Positions 113 through 64,000 of a DNA stretch of 64,000 nucleotides are shown in pieces. The notes beneath the pieces are model-generated. The model worked only from the letters and a program-made list of their open reading frames with translations. It made no database searches and was not told the DNA's origin. The stretch lies in the IMG/VR virus record IMGVR_UViG_3300005518_000016, positions 7,077-71,076 of that record; one strand, given 5' to 3'. Source of the stretch: a virus. Within the stretch, counting starts at the first letter, position 1. Each line of letters begins with the position of its first letter. The position numbers and the translations under genes are program-made.

Positions 113-1282
113 ATGCACCTACTGAAGCGGGTCGACGCCTTCGTCCGCGCCAACCCTCTATTCACCTCTCTGCTGCTGATGCTGCTGGCGCTTCTGACCC
201 AGCATCCTGGCACCGGACTGCTTCTGCTGGCCGGGCCGATCCTCCTCGATGACGTCAACACCGTCACGACCAAGACGATCATGCCCGGCGTGGTCGACAA
301 CTTCTTCAAGGCCGGGCCGCTCATCGCCTATCTCAAATCGCGGTTCACCCGCCGCTGGATCGGCCCGCAGATCCAGGAAAACTACATGTACGCCCCCATG
401 AAGGGTGGGGCCTACAAAAAAGGTGCGACCTTCAACATCCTCAAGCGGCAGACCCGCTCGGGCATGTTGTTCACCCCCCGGTACTACGAGGTCAACGTCA
501 CCGAATTCCTCGAGGACATCGAAGTCGAGCAGGTGGGTCCCAACGCCGTGTTCAACGTGGTCAAGACCGATATGGCCGAGGCGGCCCTCACCATGTCGGC
601 CATCCTCGAGATCGCGGCCTTCCACCACGGGCAGGCCCTCGCCGGTGACGACCGCTCCGCCGAGATCAACGGCCTCGAGGAGATCCTCACCGACGGCACC
701 AACGTCACCTGGACGGGATCGACCTTCACCTCCTACGGCGGGCAGCTCCGGGTCTCGGTGTCACCGGCCCTCAACTCGCCCGTTGGCCTGATCACCCCCT
801 CGGTCGCCGGCATGTCGTTCCGCGCCCTGCAGCACAGCTACCTCTCCACCTGCATCGGTAACGAGCACCCGGCCATTGGCCTCACGACCAACCGCGGCAT
901 GGGGTACATCGCCGAGACCTTCCTGCCGCACCAAATAGTTGATGTGGTCGACCCGGAGATCAACTGGCCCGGCCTGAAATTCAACCAGGCCAAGATCGTC
1001 GTCAGCCAGTACGCCCCCGGTGCCGATGGCGTCAACGACCCGGACCTCGGCAACTACCTCGCCTCGGCCGGCGAGACCTTCTGGTGGGTCAACCCGGGCC
1101 CCCAGGGCGACGACGCCTATATCCGGCTCTACATCGCCCAATCGCCCAAGTTCGCCTTCGGGTTCACCGGGTTCAAAGGCGCCCGGGACGACAACATGGT
1201 CTCCGGGCAGATCCTCTTCGCCGGCAACCTGACCGGACGTGCCCCACGGCTGTCGCGTGCCCTGTTCGGCATTGCCAAATAG
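113..1282 (+). CDS. Major capsid protein (probable HK97 fold) with a hydrophobic N-terminal leader
   Basis: 389 aa, AGGAG RBS. Capsid-like segments VVDNFFKAGPLIAYL, INGLEEILTDG, YGGQLRV, GLKFNQAKIVVSQYAP, QILFAGNLT. First gene of the structural operon. Confidence 0.85.
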   Translation: MHLLKRVDAFVRANPLFTSLLLMLLALLTQHPGTGLLLLAGPILLDDVNTVTTKTIMPGVVDNFFKAGPLIAYLKSRFTRRWIGPQIQENYMYAPMKGGAYKKGATFNILKRQTRSGMLFTPRYYEVNVTEFLEDIEVEQVGPNAVFNVVKTDMAEAALTMSAILEIAAFHHGQALAGDDRSAEINGLEEILTDGTNVTWTGSTFTSYGGQLRVSVSPALNSPVGLITPSVAGMSFRALQHSYLSTCIGNEHPAIGLTTNRGMGYIAETFLPHQIVDVVDPEINWPGLKFNQAKIVVSQYAPGADGVNDPDLGNYLASAGETFWWVNPGPQGDDAYIRLYIAQSPKFAFGFTGFKGARDDNMVSGQILFAGNLTGRAPRLSRALFGIAK

Positions 1283-59581: not shown

Positions 59582-60169
59582 ATGAACATCGGCGAAACGC
59601 TCAAGGAGACGGGAGTCGGCATCCTCGCCTGGGTGACGAACGAGCTGCGCGTCTACGCGAGGAACGACGATGCCGCCAAGTACCGCGTGGGAGGCCCCGG
59701 CGATCATGGCGGCTGCCTCTCTTTCAACAAGGTCTGGCTCGATGCCAACAACCGGCCCGTCAACGAGGAAGAACTCGGGCTGATCCAGATCAAGCAGGAC
59801 GAGCGCACCCGGAACGATCCGAACGGCGCACGCGGCGAGATGACCATCCATCTCAATGATGGGCAGAAGCGCCAGCCGGACAGTCTGGTCCCTGTCATGC
59901 TAATCCGGACCGACGGCTACACGATGCTCGTCCCCCGCAACGACAGCCCTGAGCATCCACCGGACAACCAAGGACCCACGCCCATGCCCACGACTACCGG
60001 CGCCTACGACGGCGCGCAATTTCACGGGTCGCACAATTTATTCCTGTACGCCCGCCAGACCGACGGGCACGACGTCCTCTACCGCTGCACTGCGAACGGA
60101 GAGCCCGAGGAAGCGATCTGGGTCTCGGACGGGCCGAGTCCGAACGGACGCTGGCTCGGGCCTCTTTGA
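59582..60169 (+). CDS. Hypothetical protein with a C-terminal bulb-lectin-like motif; ends at CTT-TGA-C
   Basis: GGAGGT RBS; QTDGHDVLY...AIWVS resembles QxDGNLVLY...WAS. Confidence 0.55.
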   Translation: MNIGETLKETGVGILAWVTNELRVYARNDDAAKYRVGGPGDHGGCLSFNKVWLDANNRPVNEEELGLIQIKQDERTRNDPNGARGEMTIHLNDGQKRQPDSLVPVMLIRTDGYTMLVPRNDSPEHPPDNQGPTPMPTTTGAYDGAQFHGSHNLFLYARQTDGHDVLYRCTANGEPEEAIWVSDGPSPNGRWLGPL

Positions 60170-61232
60170 CCAGATACCTGCGGCGCCTCCCCCCGAGCCC
60201 CTGCCGGCCCCCTGGCCGACGCCGGAGCCTGTGCCATGGCCCTTGCCTGCGGCGCAGCCCGGCATCCCTATTCGTGTCTCCACCGACCAAGATGGTCCGA
60301 TCGCCAAGCGGATGATGTCGTACTGGGCCAACGCCTTTGCCTCCGGCGGATCCACGGCGTGGGTCTTCGCGGGCTCCCTGGCCTCCGGAGGGCCGATCTT
60401 CTGGGAGGTCGATCTCCGCACGCGCCGCTCCATCCCCCGCGGCCCCCTCGCCGTGTCCTACCACGGTGAGACCGAGGGCTGGTACTGGGATGCCGCGGGC
60501 GCCATCTACCTCATCGACGGCCCACGCTTCCGCCGCGTGGATCCCTTCACGGGCTCGGATCAGATCCTCTACGACCTCAGCACCGATCCCCGCTTTGACA
60601 ACTGTGTGCTCTGGCAGCCGCACTCCTCGCCCAGCGGCCGGACCCACTCGGCCACGGTCCAGCGCCGGGTCCCCGACGGGCCCTATCCCAATATCGGCAC
60701 GGTAGTCTTCCACGACGGGGTCCTGGACTACTTCGAGGCCCACGGCCTCCTAGATGAATCCACGGTGGTCGGGGACGACTGGGTCTGCATCCGAGAAACC
60801 CCCGAGGGTCAGAAGGGCGAGGACAACCGGGTCATTCACCTCCGCACCCGGGAGACCCGCCTGATCAAGGATGCCGAGCGGGCCCTCGGGCATTCCGACG
60901 CCGGCACCGACTGGATGGTGGGGGAAGCGGACAAGCCCGATCCCGGCCAGTGCGGCTGGTGGGATCTCACCCAACCTCTCACACCGGGACGCTTCCATCC
61001 CCTCTTCGACACCCTCAACATGGGCTACGTGTCGGTGCGCGGCGACCGGATCCTCCATTCCAGCGATCTCGAGCTGCGCCTGATCGACCGGCTGAGCGGC
61101 ACCATCACGCCCCTCTATGCCCACGGGGGTGGCACGGCCTATGATGATCGGGTGAAGGCCAATTTAGATCCCTCGGGCACGCTGGCCTGCTACATGAGCG
61201 GCGGGCAGATCTACCTCCTGCCGCTGCCCTGA
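60168..61232 (+). CDS. Beta-propeller protein, possibly expressed as a +1 frameshift fusion (first canonical start is GTG 60231)
   Basis: Frame is open from GAC 60168 through a Pro-rich linker; repeated VDL.T / VDPFTG / IDRLSG blades. Confidence 0.6.
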   Translation, partial: DQIPAAPPPEPLPAPWPTPEPVPWPLPAAQPGIPIRVSTDQDGPIAKRMMSYWANAFASGGSTAWVFAGSLASGGPIFWEVDLRTRRSIPRGPLAVSYHGETEGWYWDAAGAIYLIDGPRFRRVDPFTGSDQILYDLSTDPRFDNCVLWQPHSSPSGRTHSATVQRRVPDGPYPNIGTVVFHDGVLDYFEAHGLLDESTVVGDDWVCIRETPEGQKGEDNRVIHLRTRETRLIKDAERALGHSDAGTDWMVGEADKPDPGQCGWWDLTQPLTPGRFHPLFDTLNMGYVSVRGDRILHSSDLELRLIDRLSGTITPLYAHGGGTAYDDRVKANLDPSGTLACYMSGGQIYLLPLP

Positions 61233-61255
61233 CCGTTGGCACACTAGGAGGCTGT

Positions 61256-61474
61256 ATGGATCTCTCCTCGCTCATCTCCGTGGTCCTGGTCCTGGTGGTC
61301 CTCGGGTTCCTGCTCTGGCTGCTCTTCACCTACGTCCCCATGCCAGACCCCTTCAAGACGATCATCATGGTGGTGATCGTGATCTGCGTGGTGCTCTGGC
61401 TCCTCTCGGCGATCGGGGTGTGGCACGGCTTTCGTGGCGCGGCCCTGATGCTGTCCACCGGTGCCTTGGGGTAG
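61256..61474 (+). CDS. Small two-TM membrane protein (Thivi_2564-like)
   Basis: LVVLGFLLWLLFTYVPMPDPFKTIIMVVIVICVVLWLL; AGGAGG RBS. Confidence 0.7.
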   Translation: MDLSSLISVVLVLVVLGFLLWLLFTYVPMPDPFKTIIMVVIVICVVLWLLSAIGVWHGFRGAALMLSTGALG

Positions 61475-61486
61475 ACTCCGGGGCAG

Positions 61487-62887
61487 GTGTACAGCGACGC
61501 CCTGATCGCGGCCAAGATTGCCCGTCTTGAGACCACCCTTGGCTCGGTCCTCCCCTCGGGGAAGCTCGAATCCATCCCCGTGGACCACTGCCATTCAATG
61601 GTCCGCTCGCTCGAAGGGATCTACGACCATGCCCGCAAGCTCCCCACCCGCGGCTTCACCCCCGAGGAGCAGCAGTTTGTGGCCAACGAGCGCCTCCGCT
61701 GCCCGCTCGACTTCGCCTACTTCGCCCAGCGCTATTGGCTCATCCAGTCCGAGGGGCAGACCCTCAAGCCCCTCTATCCCCTCTGGGAGTCCCAGCGACT
61801 CATCCTCGCCGAGCTGGCCCGGCAGGAGGAATCCCGCTGGCGCTCTCGCCATCCTGACGGATTGTTGTGCAATGGTCTCAAGGGTCGCCAGCTCGGCTTC
61901 TCGACCCTCGCCGAAGCCCTCCTCGGTCACCGGGTCGTCACCCAGACCTACGTGAAAGGCCTCGTGGCCAGCGACGTCCCTCAAAACTCTGGCTCCCAGG
62001 GGATCTTCGGGATGCTCGAATTGGGCTTCCAGCACCTCCCGTGGTGGCTCAAGCCGGGCGTGAAGTTCTGGAACACCGACTCCCACCTCGTGTTAGCCAA
62101 TGGGTCCTCGATCATCGTGGAATCGGGCAAATCCATGAAAGGGGGCCTGCAGGAGGAGGGCGGGCAGAAGGGCCAACTCGGCCGATCCAAGACCTACTCC
62201 GTCGGTCATCTCACCGAGCTGAGTACCTGGGAATACGCCGAGACCATCGATGACGCCCTGATGCCGGCCATCCCCCAGACCCCTCGCACCCTCTTCCTCA
62301 AGGAGTCCACCGCCAAGGGTCGTCACAACTGGTGGCACGAGGAGTGGCTGGCCACCGAGCAAGGTTTAACCCGGTCCTTCAACATCTTCATCCCGTGGTA
62401 CGCCGAGCGCTCCAAATACTGGCTCCCTGTCCCAGACGGTTGGGTGCCAGCAGACGACACTTTGGCGTTTGCGGCCCGGGTGCGGGATAAGGGCCCTCAG
62501 TACATGCGCCGCGCCGTCACCCTCGCCAAGGAGCAGCTCTACTGGTATGAACTCCGCAAGGCCGAGGCGATCCACAAGGGACATTTGTATAAGTTCCTGG
62601 AGGAGTATCCCGCCGAGCCCGAGGAGGCCTTCCAATATTCAGGGAGGTCGATCTTCTCCATCGAGACCATGGATCGGCTGGAGCGGCAGGCCAAGCCGCT
62701 GGTGGATCTCTGGCAGGTCGCCCCCCATGGCGAATTGAAGGAAGATCGGGAGGCCCTCCTCCGTGAGCTGGCCGCCGAGCAACGGATCGATCGGGAACGC
62801 CTCGCCGCCGAGCGCCTCCGCGCCGCCTCCGCCCTCCCCGAGGGCCCCGGCCCCCAGACGCTTGTTGTAGAATCCCCCCCGGAATGA
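61487..62887 (+). CDS. terL: Terminase large subunit, ATPase half
   Basis: DFAYFAQRY, LKGRQLGFST (Walker A region), HLTELSTW (Walker B), ESTAKG, FIPWY, EEYPAEPEEAF..SGRSIF. Confidence 0.9.
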   Translation: MYSDALIAAKIARLETTLGSVLPSGKLESIPVDHCHSMVRSLEGIYDHARKLPTRGFTPEEQQFVANERLRCPLDFAYFAQRYWLIQSEGQTLKPLYPLWESQRLILAELARQEESRWRSRHPDGLLCNGLKGRQLGFSTLAEALLGHRVVTQTYVKGLVASDVPQNSGSQGIFGMLELGFQHLPWWLKPGVKFWNTDSHLVLANGSSIIVESGKSMKGGLQEEGGQKGQLGRSKTYSVGHLTELSTWEYAETIDDALMPAIPQTPRTLFLKESTAKGRHNWWHEEWLATEQGLTRSFNIFIPWYAERSKYWLPVPDGWVPADDTLAFAARVRDKGPQYMRRAVTLAKEQLYWYELRKAEAIHKGHLYKFLEEYPAEPEEAFQYSGRSIFSIETMDRLERQAKPLVDLWQVAPHGELKEDREALLRELAAEQRIDRERLAAERLRAASALPEGPGPQTLVVESPPE

Positions 62888-63135
62888 TTCACCCCTCCCG
62901 CCGCGCCTTCCTCCGCTCGCTGCTGGCGCTGCCGATCGCGGCCACCGTGGACGTCGAGCAGTTGCTCTGGACGCCCTCGCCGATCATCGTGGTCCCGGCC
63001 ATTCGGGGGGTCACGATCGAGGAGATCAACGCCGTCACAATGCAGGTGCTCCTCCCTGGCGTATGTGACCACTTCTTCCGGTCGACGCCGCTGCTGGAGT
63101 ACCTCCGCCGGAGTGGCGGGGTGTCGTCAGCATGA
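62884..63135 (+). CDS. 83-aa protein with a twin-arginine motif and a capsid N-terminus-like segment
   Basis: SRRAFL; residues ~43-77 align with MCP residues ~43-77; ATGA overlaps at both ends. Confidence 0.7.
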   Translation: MIHPSRRAFLRSLLALPIAATVDVEQLLWTPSPIIVVPAIRGVTIEEINAVTMQVLLPGVCDHFFRSTPLLEYLRRSGGVSSA

Positions 63136-64000
63136 TCCTCCTCCCCGAAGCCCGCCCCCACTATGAAGTGCCGAAAGGATTCGGATTCCATCGTTACTCC
63201 CCCGCCGAACTCAAGGAACTCGCCCACCTCTTCGGCTCGCTTCAGATCTGGCAGCATCCCCGCCGCGGCCACCGCTACATCCTCGGCTGCGATGTCTCCG
63301 ACGGCCTCGGCCAGGATCGCTCCGTCTGCGATGTATTCAGGATGGGCACGATCGAGGAGGGCGAGGAGCAGGTGGCCCAGTGGATCTCCGACTCGGTCCC
63401 CCCGCGCCAGTTTGCCTACGTGATCGACGCCATCGGCCATCTCTACAAATGGCCCGACGACCGCGAGGCCCTCGCCGCCATCGAGTGCAACAACCACGGC
63501 CTCTCGGTCCAGGACACCCTCCAGCTCCACCTTGGCTACCGGCACTTCTACGTCTGGGAGGTCCTCGACCAAGCCGACCCCATTAAACGGTTCACCACCA
63601 AACTCGGCTGGGTCACCACCGCCCGCACCCGCCCCATCCTCCTTGATCAGCTCTACACGGGCGTGACCACGATCGATCCCCTCACCGGCTACTCCGACTG
63701 CCGCCTCAATTCCCGCTTCACCCTCGATGAAATGCGGGACTTCCAGACCGATGGCGCCCTCTGGGAAGCCGAAGCCGCCCGGGGCGCCCATGACGACTGC
63801 ATCGTCGCCGCCGGGATCGCCCACTACGTCGCCTGGCGCCTGATGGCCGGGGAGACCGAACCCCTCAGCGATCGCCGCCGCCGCCGCCGCGAAGCCGAGC
63901 TCCGCCGCCTGGCCTCCGGTGACCAAGCTAGACTTGACTACCGCAATAGTGATAGTACCGTCGACCAGATGCAGGCGTCCGACCCCCGGACCCCGGAGGA
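63132..64000 (+). CDS. terL: Terminase large subunit, RNase H-like nuclease half (runs off the window; not in the ORF track)
   Basis: Manual translation from ATG 63132: LQIWQHP..GHRYILGCDVSDGLGQDRS, EQVAQW, AIECNNHG, KLGWVTT..TRP, LDEMRDF, GAHDDCIVAAGIA. Confidence 0.88.
   Translation, partial: MILLPEARPHYEVPKGFGFHRYSPAELKELAHLFGSLQIWQHPRRGHRYILGCDVSDGLGQDRSVCDVFRMGTIEEGEEQVAQWISDSVPPRQFAYVIDAIGHLYKWPDDREALAAIECNNHGLSVQDTLQLHLGYRHFYVWEVLDQADPIKRFTTKLGWVTTARTRPILLDQLYTGVTTIDPLTGYSDCRLNSRFTLDEMRDFQTDGALWEAEAARGAHDDCIVAAGIAHYVAWRLMAGETEPLSDRRRRRREAELRRLASGDQARLDYRNSDSTVDQMQASDPRTPE

What the first reader, a model, noticed from the sequence alone, without database searches (positions are those of the whole stretch)
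62884..63135. Twin-arginine mini-protein carrying a copy of the capsid N-terminal segment, placed inside the terminase locus
Seen: the 83-aa ORF starts MIHPSRRAFLRSLLAL, matching the Tat motif S-R-R-x-F-L. It ends in VTIEEINAVTMQVLLPGVCDHFFRSTPLLEYLRRS, which aligns without gaps to the major capsid segment ILLDDVNTVTTKTIMPGVVDNFFKAGPLIAYLKSR (13/35 identical, many other positions conservative). In both proteins this segment follows a ~42-aa leader. The ORF is coupled by ATGA overlaps to both terminase halves, and a TAGAAT -10-like box (62868-62873) lies 10 nt before its ATG. Inference: it could be a capsid-arm mimic that links prohead assembly or packaging to the membrane, a decoy for the prohead protease or for capsid-sensing defence systems, or an assembly inhibitor of competing phages. 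I know of no described system like this.
Basis: partly seen in the sequence, partly recalled or inferred. Interest (0 to 1): 0.85.

Follow-up and report, generated by a model that had tools for sequence, protein, structure and literature searches.

The report
Export-tagged capsid-arm mini-protein in phage
A soil phage carries a small, conserved, optional gene that joins a bacterial export-type (twin-arginine) leader to a copy of the first stretch of its own head-shell protein; it belongs to a very large family of such genes that I found in no paper and whose job is untested.

Summary
The 83-aa ORF (62884-63135) exists. It overlaps both terminase genes by ATGA. Its residues 42-76 match the N-terminal arm of the window's major capsid protein (MCP): 13/35 identical, BLASTP E 2e-9, and 0 of 5000 shuffles reach the score.

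It is a real gene. It has 15 homologues, and dN/dS is below 1 in all 27 pairs where it could be computed.

Its most conserved part is the leader, not the capsid-like part. A 36-residue leader profile (RRxFL...DxExLLWxP) finds 330 cluster representatives at E<=1e-10. The 148 I read are small proteins (median 93.5 aa) with the leader at or near the N-terminus.

Their variable tails are often capsid fragments. 43 of 146 tails match a 10-protein capsid panel, against 1 of 146 for a non-capsid control panel.

The site between the two terminase genes is a cargo slot. In relatives it is empty or holds other genes, including a Tad2-like anti-defence gene and an HNH endonuclease.

Tat export is unproven: Pfam TAT_signal scores 12.7 bits against a cut-off of 22.7. 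Function is untested. My best guess is a capsid-arm mimic or decoy taken to the Tat machinery.

Earlier notes of this scan describe the same family on other DNA. My literature searches found nothing on it.

The parts
62884..63135 (+). Mini gene: 83 codons plus TGA. A twin-arginine-type leader joined to a copy of the capsid N-arm.
   Evidence: It has 15 homologues. dN/dS is 0.19-0.79 in the 27 of 27 pairs where it is defined.
62893..63000 (+). Conserved leader module, residues 4-39: PSRRAFLRSLLALPIAATVDVEQLLWTPSPIIVVPA. The RR pair is at 62899-62904.
   Evidence: In alignment A3, RR, L, D, E, LLW and P are invariant in 17 of 17 rows. The profile finds 330 representatives at E<=1e-10. R6, R7, D23, E25, W29, P31 and P38 are invariant in 149 rows.
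63007..63111 (+). Capsid-arm copy, residues 42-76 (VTIEEINAVTMQVLLPGVCDHFFRSTPLLEYLRRS).
   Evidence: BLASTP E 2e-9. 0 of 5000 shuffles reach the score. NF033394 capsid_maj_Podo positions 1-38 align here. The AlphaFold model has helices at 45-64 and 69-76.
113..1282 (+). Major capsid protein, 389 aa, HK97 fold. It has a roughly 41-residue hydrophobic leader (113-235). The N-arm segment that the mini gene copies is at 236-340.
   Evidence: phrog_9953. AlphaFold mean pLDDT is 72.7 and there are 38 PDB capsid hits at E<=1e-3. The leader is present in 64 of 120 listed homologues and absent in 56.
61487..62887 (+). TerL-N: the ATPase half of a naturally split large terminase (466 aa).
   Evidence: phrog_5989 and phrog_2. 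The two halves are in different frames in 15 of 15 related loci.
63132..63998 (+). TerL-C: the nuclease half. It runs off the window, which is also the end of the record.
   Evidence: phrog_24361 and phrog_2. The window ends at the end of the record.
62884..62887 (+). ATGA overlap: TerL-N stop and mini-gene start. Left edge of the cargo slot.
   Evidence: A contig of run X2 bridges this point with 0 differences, and a contig of run X4 changes cargo exactly here.
63132..63135 (+). ATGA overlap: TerL-C start and mini-gene stop. Right edge of the cargo slot.
   Evidence: The X4 contig resumes at 63130 after 220 other letters.
62868..62873 (+). It is not supported as a promoter.
   Evidence: Letters seen. 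The scan found 0 sigma-70-type sites in 60000-64000.

Best explanation
Shown here. The ORF is a real, selected, non-essential phage gene. It belongs to a very large family of small phage proteins built from two parts. The first part is a nearly invariant N-terminal module that looks like a twin-arginine (Tat) export leader: RRxFL, a short hydrophobic stretch, then D-x-E-x-L-L-W-x-P. The second part is a short copy of a conserved piece of a major capsid protein. In this phage the copied piece is the first ~35 residues (the N-arm) of its podovirus-type HK97-fold capsid protein. The gene sits in a cargo slot between the two genes of a naturally split large terminase. It is joined to both by ATGA overlaps, so it is probably made together with the packaging and head proteins late in infection.

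Inferred, not shown. The capsid-derived tail acts as a molecular mimic. It would bind whatever normally grips that capsid segment, most plausibly a host immune sensor that recognises capsid protein, or else capsid or scaffold protein itself. The leader would then take the bound partner to the Tat translocon or membrane, by analogy with 'hitchhiker' Tat export, removing or neutralising it.

I put about 0.9 on the identity and architecture, and about 0.3 on the decoy-plus-Tat mechanism.
For: Real gene.
- 15 homologues of 70-123 aa.
- dN/dS is 0.186-0.794 in 27 of 27 pairs where it is defined, with synonymous sites near saturation.
- The junction with TerL-N is identical in a second run's contig (X2).

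Family.
- The 36-position leader profile finds 2963 representatives at E<=1e-3 and 330 at E<=1e-10 among 1.84 billion.
- The 148 I read are 48-205 aa (median 93.5) and carry the module at or near the N-terminus.
- ESM Atlas look-alike clusters of 66 and 63 members are recorded as 100% viral.

Capsid fragments.
- 43 of 146 tails beat all 200 shuffles, with z>=5, against a panel of 10 capsid proteins. By position on the panel protein, 24 map to the N-terminal region (start positions 1-36), 3 to positions 70-137, 11 to 156-213 and 5 to 281-347.
- The same test against 10 non-capsid proteins of this phage gives 1 of 146.
- In an unrelated phage (G008), the member's tail matches the N-terminus of that phage's own phrog_9953 capsid protein. 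The score is 54, against a 99th percentile of 32 for that genome's frames.

Tat-likeness.
- RR is invariant in the family.
- 41 of 149 members hit PF10518 at E<=0.01, best 3.8e-5.

Accessory, counter-defence-type location.
- The slot is empty in L005, L006 and L009.
- It holds a Tad2-like gene (PF11195, 82.7 bits) in L007, an HNH endonuclease plus a family member in L023, other small ORFs in L004 and L015, and about 3.5 kb in L012.
- A roughly 90%-identical contig in run X4 replaces exactly 62888-63129 with 220 other letters.

Capsid proteins as defence triggers. Passages of the review PMC13728456 describe capsid proteins as triggers of CapRel, Thoeris and CBASS.
Against: - This protein's own Tat score is below threshold: PF10518 12.7 bits against 22.7. 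TIGR01409 matches 1 of 16 members, at E 0.096.
- By eye, the region after the hydrophobic stretch is acidic (D-V-E) and very strongly conserved. From recalled knowledge, that is unusual for a signal peptide and could mean the module binds something other than TatBC.
- By eye, I see no clear AxA cleavage site.
- The capsid-like part is no closer to its own phage's MCP than to relatives' MCPs. The window's mini protein scores 91 against its own MCP, 91 against G005's and 85 against G004's. G001's mini protein scores 63 against its own and 74 against G005's. There is therefore no sign of co-evolution with a cognate partner.
- One member (G006) has a tail with no match in its own genome (36 against a 99th percentile of 34.7).
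- 103 of 146 tails matched nothing in my small capsid panel.
- No partner, export or phenotype has been observed.
Confidence: 0.35

Rival explanations
1. Weapon against other phages. The capsid fragment is a dominant-negative piece that poisons capsid assembly of co-infecting phages with the same capsid type, or tethers their capsid protein to the membrane. The phage's own assembly would be spared by sequence divergence or timing.
For: The fragments copy conserved pieces of capsid proteins, and the N-terminal region is the most common choice (24 of 43 mapped tails). The tail is as similar to relatives' MCPs as to its own, which suits a broad target. The gene is optional and swappable.
Against: The gene is coupled to the phage's own late genes. 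At 43% identity to its own N-arm, it should interfere with its own capsid as much as with a relative's. No binding to MCP was shown.
Confidence: 0.15
2. The module is not an export signal. It is a conserved docking peptide for a cytoplasmic partner, such as a host chaperone, a protease or a phage assembly protein. The protein would then act in the cytoplasm, for example by holding the capsid N-arm's partner (scaffold or a neighbouring subunit) during head assembly.
For: The invariant residues go well beyond the Tat consensus: D23, E25, LLW and P31, with P38 invariant in A7 but not in A3. This protein's HMM score is below threshold. The hydrophobic stretch is short and the following region acidic (by eye). 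The phage's own MCP carries a leader of the same length at the same place.
Against: RRxFL is invariant across phages of very different composition, and 41 of 149 members do hit PF10518. The MCP leader is not detectably related to the module (hhalign probability 7.6%). The gene is dispensable in close relatives, which argues against a core assembly role.
Confidence: 0.15
3. An exported or membrane-anchored small protein that acts at the envelope, for example in superinfection exclusion or lysis timing. On this reading the capsid-like tail is only recycled coding material and has no mimicry role.
For: The leader is Tat-like. The protein is small. ESM Atlas feature look-alikes include small Tat substrates at 0.82-0.86, which are leads only.
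Against: The strong and specific enrichment for capsid fragments, 43 of 146 against 1 of 146 in the control, is hard to explain if the tail's origin does not matter. The tail is under purifying selection: for window versus L008, pN is 0.291 and pS 0.681 over codons 40-83.
Confidence: 0.1
4. A non-functional remnant of a partial capsid-gene duplication, or an artefact of assembly or gene calling.
For: The ORF is short, has no strong Shine-Dalgarno sequence before the ATG and no listed RNA evidence.
Against: The frame is conserved in 15 homologues. dN/dS is below 1 in 27 of 27 defined pairs. There are thousands of family members. The junction is identical in another run's contig.
Confidence: 0.03

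Closest known systems
Twin-arginine (Tat) signal peptides and 'hitchhiker' Tat export (Pfam PF10518, TIGR01409). The hitchhiker examples HybO/HybC and DmsA/DmsB are recalled, not from a call.
   Same: N-terminal S/T-R-R-x-F-L followed by a hydrophobic stretch. 41 of 149 family members hit PF10518 at E<=0.01. Carrying a bound partner through Tat is an established principle (recalled).
   Different: This protein scores below both curated cut-offs. The region after the hydrophobic stretch is acidic and nearly invariant (D-x-E-x-LLW-x-P). The passenger is a fragment of a cytoplasmic virion protein. No export has been shown.
Capsid-derived triggers of abortive infection: the Gol peptide of T4 gp23 with the Lit protease (recalled), and MCP sensing by CapRel-SJ46, Thoeris and CBASS (passages of PMC13728456).
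   Same: A short stretch of a major capsid protein is the thing a host immune protein recognises. That makes a free copy of such a stretch a plausible decoy or antagonist.
   Different: Those are pieces of the real capsid protein sensed by the host. They are not separate phage genes and have no leader. No sensor is known for this capsid type.
Small phage anti-defence genes such as Tad2 (Pfam PF11195).
   Same: Small, optional and swappable. A Tad2-like gene (82.7 bits) occupies the very same slot between TerL-N and TerL-C in relative L007.
   Different: Tad2 is described as a sponge for a signalling molecule (family description; mechanism recalled). The mini protein shares no sequence with it, and its activity is unknown.
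N-arm of HK97-fold capsid proteins (phrog_9953, NCBIfam NF033394 capsid_maj_Podo). In P22 the N-arm binds the scaffolding protein (recalled).
   Same: Residues 44-81 align to profile positions 1-38 of NF033394. There is 43% identity to the resident MCP's N-arm, and the segment is predicted helical.
   Different: Only the arm is present. The rest of the fold is missing, so the protein cannot be a capsid subunit.
Capsid-targeting sequence of T4 internal proteins (recalled).
   Same: A short N-terminal leader shared by several small phage proteins with different passengers.
   Different: The T4 leader directs proteins into the prohead and is cut by the prohead protease. No protease gene was seen near this phage's head genes by eye, and the leader here is Tat-like.

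Membership tests
Tat signal peptide (PF10518 / TIGR01409) | S/T-R-R-x-F-L-K motif near the N-terminus | tested here: met
   S5-R6-R7-A-F-L-R. RR is invariant in 17 of 17 rows and in 149 of 149 rows.
Tat signal peptide (PF10518 / TIGR01409) | Score at or above the curated HMM cut-off | tested here: not met
   PF10518 scores 12.7 bits against 22.7. TIGR01409 matches 1 of 16 members, at E 0.096. In the wider family, 41 of 149 hit PF10518 at E<=0.01. The best long form scores 21.5 bits, still under 22.7.
Tat signal peptide (PF10518 / TIGR01409) | Moderately hydrophobic h-region, then a c-region with an AxA-type cleavage site | tested here: inconclusive
   By eye only. The hydrophobic stretch is about 11 residues (LLALPIAATV), followed by acidic D-V-E. 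A-A-T could be a cleavage site, but E or M sit at that place in other members. No SignalP or TatP was available.
Tat signal peptide (PF10518 / TIGR01409) | TatABC- and RR-dependent export | not testable with these tools
   Needs a reporter assay in tat+ and tatC- cells.
Leader-plus-virion-fragment mini-proteins (undescribed family; also noted earlier in this scan) | N-terminal module RRxFL ... D-x-E-x-LLW-x-P | tested here: met
   The window's residues 4-39 are the first row of A3. The module profile matches the window's own genome once, at E 7.6e-22.
Leader-plus-virion-fragment mini-proteins (undescribed family; also noted earlier in this scan) | Small size, with the module at or near the N-terminus | tested here: met
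   83 aa here. The family's listed members are 48-205 aa, median 93.5.
Leader-plus-virion-fragment mini-proteins (undescribed family; also noted earlier in this scan) | Tail that copies a piece of a capsid protein | tested here: met
   for this protein. 43 of 146 members match the capsid panel against 1 of 146 for the control panel.
Leader-plus-virion-fragment mini-proteins (undescribed family; also noted earlier in this scan) | Phage-borne and optional | tested here: met
   The record is a 71,076-base virus record. The gene is present in 1 of 15 loci found through TerL-N. Its cargo is swapped in an X4 contig.
HK97-fold major capsid protein (phrog_9953 / NF033394) | Full-length match to the capsid profile or fold | tested here: not met
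   Only profile positions 1-38 of 311 are matched, at E 0.066. There is no PHROG hit. The model is two helices with pTM 0.34.
Phage anti-defence decoy or sponge | Binds and neutralises a host immune component | not tested
   The host and any sensor are unknown. Only location evidence exists: a Tad2-like gene sits in the same slot in L007.

The most novel reading that the evidence does not exclude
Phages carry a large, modular armoury of 'export-tagged epitopes'. Each is a near-universal Tat-type leader joined to a short copy of a conserved capsid segment. Together they would work as a new kind of counter-defence. The mimic captures a host sensor that recognises that capsid segment, and the leader drags or tethers the sensor to the Tat translocon by hitchhiker export or by jamming. 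The phage's real capsid protein can then accumulate unseen.
Probability: 0.2. Interest if true: 0.95.

Novelty: categorically new. Interest (0 to 1): 0.8.

Why it matters
Capsid proteins are among the commonest triggers of bacterial immunity (review passages). It is still poorly understood how phages hide proteins they cannot change.

This family has hundreds to thousands of sequence clusters. Each joins one conserved leader to a different capsid fragment. That looks like a general, modular solution to some problem centred on the capsid protein. No paper I could find describes it.

If the fragments are decoys, they would show which capsid surfaces hosts (or rival phages) target, and they would define a new anti-defence principle. 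If instead the leader truly drives Tat export, it would be the first case I know of where a phage routes pieces of a cytoplasmic virion protein to the envelope.

In practice, the leader is a 36-residue search handle that finds such genes in any phage genome.

Tried and rejected
I used the search for related loci and the genome search instead.
- Co-variation of each mini protein's tail with its own phage's MCP. There is no diagonal dominance in the 6 x 7 score matrix, so I dropped the idea of gene conversion or co-evolution.
- Homology between the MCP's own hydrophobic leader (A4) and the family module (A3). hhalign probability is 7.6%, so this is rejected as unsupported.
- Complex prediction with MCP residues 41-389 plus mini protein residues 21-83. 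The verdict was 'no answer' (scores 0.01 and 0.07, mark 0.32). I draw no conclusion either way.
- Expression. No RNA holder is listed for 62400-63600, which carries no weight either way.
- Promoter at TAGAAT. The scan found 0 sites.
- PHROG scan of nine short family members. Only one weak capsid hit came up (P0032, phrog_283, E 0.0039). The fragments are too short for these profiles, so I used the panel-and-shuffle test instead.
- G006 member. Its tail has no match in its own 41-kb genome.
- Small terminase. I considered this because the G008 member lies directly upstream of an unsplit terminase-like ORF. I judged that ORF by eye and did not scan it. I rejected the idea: the family sits in many contexts, including among what look by eye like replication genes in L024, and nothing was seen in the protein beyond the leader and the capsid-like tail (by eye).
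- Intron or intein reading of the slot. Both junctions are clean gene boundaries in three different frames, and relatives have the two terminase genes abutting.
- Rfam on the interrupted MCP of G002. No hit at E<=0.1.
- Literature. Searches returned listings and abstracts only. I read passages of PMC13728456. Nothing describes this family. Supplementary files were not opened, and none bears on a claim here.
- A script error was corrected.
Full report
WHAT IS THERE

The window is bases 7077-71076 of a 71,076-base virus record. Its ATG overlaps the TGA of the upstream gene (ATGA at 62884-62887). Its own TGA overlaps the ATG of the downstream gene (ATGA at 63132-63135).

The upstream 466-aa product matches terminase large-subunit families over its ATPase part. 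The downstream product matches the nuclease part. The three genes use three different frames.

The ORF at 113-1282 is the major capsid protein (MCP). It matches phrog_9953 from residue 46 on. Its AlphaFold model (mean pLDDT 72.7) has 38 PDB capsid matches at E<=1e-3, among them cyanophage Mic1, A-1(L), SU10 and lambda.

IS THE RESEMBLANCE REAL?

Yes.
- The ungapped 35-residue alignment has 13 identities by my own count.
- BLASTP gives 39.3 bits and E 2e-9, with residues 46-75 of one protein aligned to residues 46-75 of the other.
- The Smith-Waterman score of 91 was reached by 0 of 5000 shuffles of either protein (mean 28.6, sd 4.5).
- The MCP frame is the best non-self match among 326 long frames of the window.
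- Independently, NCBIfam's podovirus capsid model aligns residues 44-81 of the mini protein to its first 38 positions. This is weak for this protein (E 0.066), and 4 of 16 homologues match, best 0.0025.

IS IT A GENE?

Yes.
- The protein search returned 15 homologues of 70-123 aa, which align along the frame.
- Among eight coding sequences, dN/dS was 0.186-0.794 in all 27 pairs where it could be computed. One pair was saturated.
- A contig from a second sequencing run bridges the TerL-N/mini-gene junction without a difference (X2 record 10).

THE UNEXPECTED PART: THE LEADER DEFINES THE FAMILY

In the alignment, the N-terminal 40 residues are better conserved than the capsid-like tail. Scanning virus contigs with the family alignment gave 11 loci:
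- In three, the gene lies between the terminase halves.
- In one, it lies 4.7 kb upstream of TerL-N.
- In seven, only the first ~18-40 residues match and no related terminase is nearby.

A 36-position profile of this module (A3) has RR, L, D, E, LLW and P invariant in 17 of 17 rows. Searched against 1.84 billion cluster representatives, it found 2963 at E<=1e-3 and 330 at E<=1e-10. I read 148 of the 150 listed. They are 48-205 aa (median 93.5) and carry the module at or near the N-terminus.

By eye, many of their tails are pieces of capsid proteins, taken from different parts of the protein and from different capsid families. I tested this as follows:
- 43 of 146 tails beat all 200 of their own shuffles, with z>=5, against a panel of only 10 capsid proteins.
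- By position on the panel protein, 24 map to the N-terminal region (start positions 1-36), 3 to positions 70-137, 11 to 156-213 and 5 to 281-347.
- Against a larger control panel of 10 non-capsid proteins of this same phage, 1 of 146 passes (P0098, which is also the weakest capsid hit).
- 103 tails remain unassigned.

Longer forms (205-287 aa) join the same module to the N- and C-terminal parts of a phrog_283-type capsid protein.

In an unrelated 41-kb phage (G008), the family member's tail matches the first residues of that phage's own phrog_9953 capsid protein. In another phage (G006), no match was found in its own genome.

The window's genome has one member only.

THE SITE

The two terminase halves are separate genes in different frames in 15 of 15 loci found through TerL-N. 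The junction differs from relative to relative:
- In L005, L006 and L009 the two genes abut.
- L008 has a homologue of the mini gene.
- L004 and L015 have unrelated ORFs of 56 and 57 aa.
- L012 has about 3.5 kb of other genes.
- L007 has a Tad2-like gene (PF11195, 82.7 bits).
- L023 has an HNH endonuclease beside the mini gene.
- A contig in run X4, about 90% identical in the flanks, replaces exactly 62888-63129 with 220 other letters.

A contig in an Acidobacteria genome bin has the same TerL-N / mini gene / TerL-C / portal order. This is only a weak hint of the host.

The mini gene is therefore optional cargo in a recombination-prone slot that elsewhere carries a known anti-defence family.

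IS THE LEADER A TAT SIGNAL?

The motif S-R-R-x-F-L and a following hydrophobic stretch are there, and RR is invariant in the family. But this protein scores 12.7 bits against Pfam's cut-off of 22.7. TIGR01409 touches 1 of 16 homologues. 41 of 149 members reach E<=0.01 for PF10518.

The residues after the hydrophobic stretch (D-x-E-x-LLW-x-P) are acidic and nearly invariant. From what I recall of signal peptides, that is not what one usually looks like. The model of the mini protein shows helices at 6-20, 24-27, 45-64 and 69-76 and no globular fold (pTM 0.34).

So 'Tat-type leader' is a description, not a demonstrated function.

WHAT IT PROBABLY DOES

Shown: a selected, optional, late-operon gene that joins an almost universal leader to a copy of the capsid N-arm.

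Inferred:
- The near-invariance of the leader across phages of very different base composition points to a conserved host partner, for which the Tat machinery is the obvious candidate.
- The specific choice of capsid pieces points to mimicry of the capsid protein.

I therefore favour a decoy that engages whatever recognises that capsid segment and takes it to the translocon or membrane. Two things fit this reading. Capsid proteins are frequent immune triggers (passages of PMC13728456). An anti-defence gene shares the slot in a relative.

Four things count against it:
- The tail does not track its own MCP.
- The Tat score is below threshold.
- Most tails are unassigned.
- There is no observed partner.

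The rival readings are a poison for rival phages' assembly, a cytoplasmic docking peptide with a role in the phage's own assembly, an envelope protein with a recycled tail, and a dead remnant. They are set out with their tests in the Rival explanations section. Only the remnant is clearly disfavoured.

COMPARISON WITH WHAT IS KNOWN, AND NOVELTY

The nearest known things are:
- Tat signal peptides and hitchhiker export.
- Capsid-derived immune triggers (the Gol peptide with Lit, recalled; CapRel).
- Small anti-defence genes such as Tad2.
- The N-arm of HK97-fold capsid proteins.
- The T4 capsid-targeting leader (recalled).

The mini protein fails membership of the capsid family, because only the arm is present, and it fails the curated Tat threshold.

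Five full-text searches found nothing on such proteins.

After I had reached the family picture, I looked at this scan's earlier notes. At least ten notes on other genomes describe the same kind of gene, a Tat-type leader joined to capsid fragments (two of them also name terminase, portal or head-protein fragments), and report finding no paper either. They are unchecked AI notes that agree with my results but do not add independent evidence.

LIMITS

- The host is unknown.
- No export predictor was available.
- The complex prediction gave no answer.
- No RNA data were listed.
- The capsid panel is small, so 43 of 146 is a lower bound of unknown tightness.

Noticed in passing
window 113-235 (MCP residues 1-41); homologues P0175-P0294: The MCP carries a roughly 41-residue basic-plus-hydrophobic leader ahead of the canonical start. 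Of 120 listed homologues, 64 are 371 aa or longer; the 40 of these I printed have such a leader. The other 56 are 356 aa or shorter; the 25 I printed start directly at the N-arm (M-A-I-L-L-D-D...). A good ribosome-binding site precedes the long form in five relatives. AlphaFold models the leader as three helices with pLDDT around 80. It is not detectably related to the family module (hhalign probability 7.6%).
   Followed up: partly
L033 778-1498 (record G002): A relative's MCP gene is interrupted inside the N-arm, after ...PGLADNF. The roughly 720-base insert encodes a 237-aa ORF with a weak LAGLIDADG_3 match (E 0.0022, below cut-off). Rfam found no intron at E<=0.1. The break lies in the very segment that the mini gene copies.
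   Followed up: partly
L007 4466-4747: A Tad2-like (PF11195, 82.7 bits) anti-Thoeris-type gene occupies the slot between TerL-N and TerL-C in a relative. Its start abuts the end of TerL-N.
   Followed up: yes
L016 4426-5189 and L017 1897-2660: In two distant relatives the TerL-N match itself is split by about 760 bases between query residues 142 and 139. This suggests an insertion (intein, intron or endonuclease gene) in the ATPase half.
   Followed up: no
L003 1-340 (start of record G000) versus window 63800-64000: The first bases of the record encode almost the same peptide, on the minus strand, as the last bases of the window, but with substitutions. This looks like a terminal overlap of a circularly permuted genome assembled from slightly different variants. 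TerL-C probably continues across the record's ends.
   Followed up: no
L003 4103-4645 (minus strand); L023 5254-5751 (minus strand): HNH_3 homing-endonuclease genes: 44.2 bits beside the portal gene of this phage, and 53.0 bits inside the terminase slot of a relative.
   Followed up: partly
L025 2446-2733 and 2727-3038: Two tandem family members with different tails sit in one 8-kb virus contig.
   Followed up: no
L019 10354-10773: A 140-aa ORF just upstream of TerL-N starts M-D-R-R-A-F-F-G-H-F-L-G-G-S-A-V-G-A..., another twin-arginine-like N-terminus but without the D-x-E-x-LLW-x-P motif. It has no Pfam hit at E<=0.01.
   Followed up: partly
window 62888-63129, run X4 record 25: A roughly 90%-identical rhizosphere contig carries 220 different letters in place of the mini gene, between unchanged terminase flanks. 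The replacing sequence was not shown, so its content is unknown.
   Followed up: no
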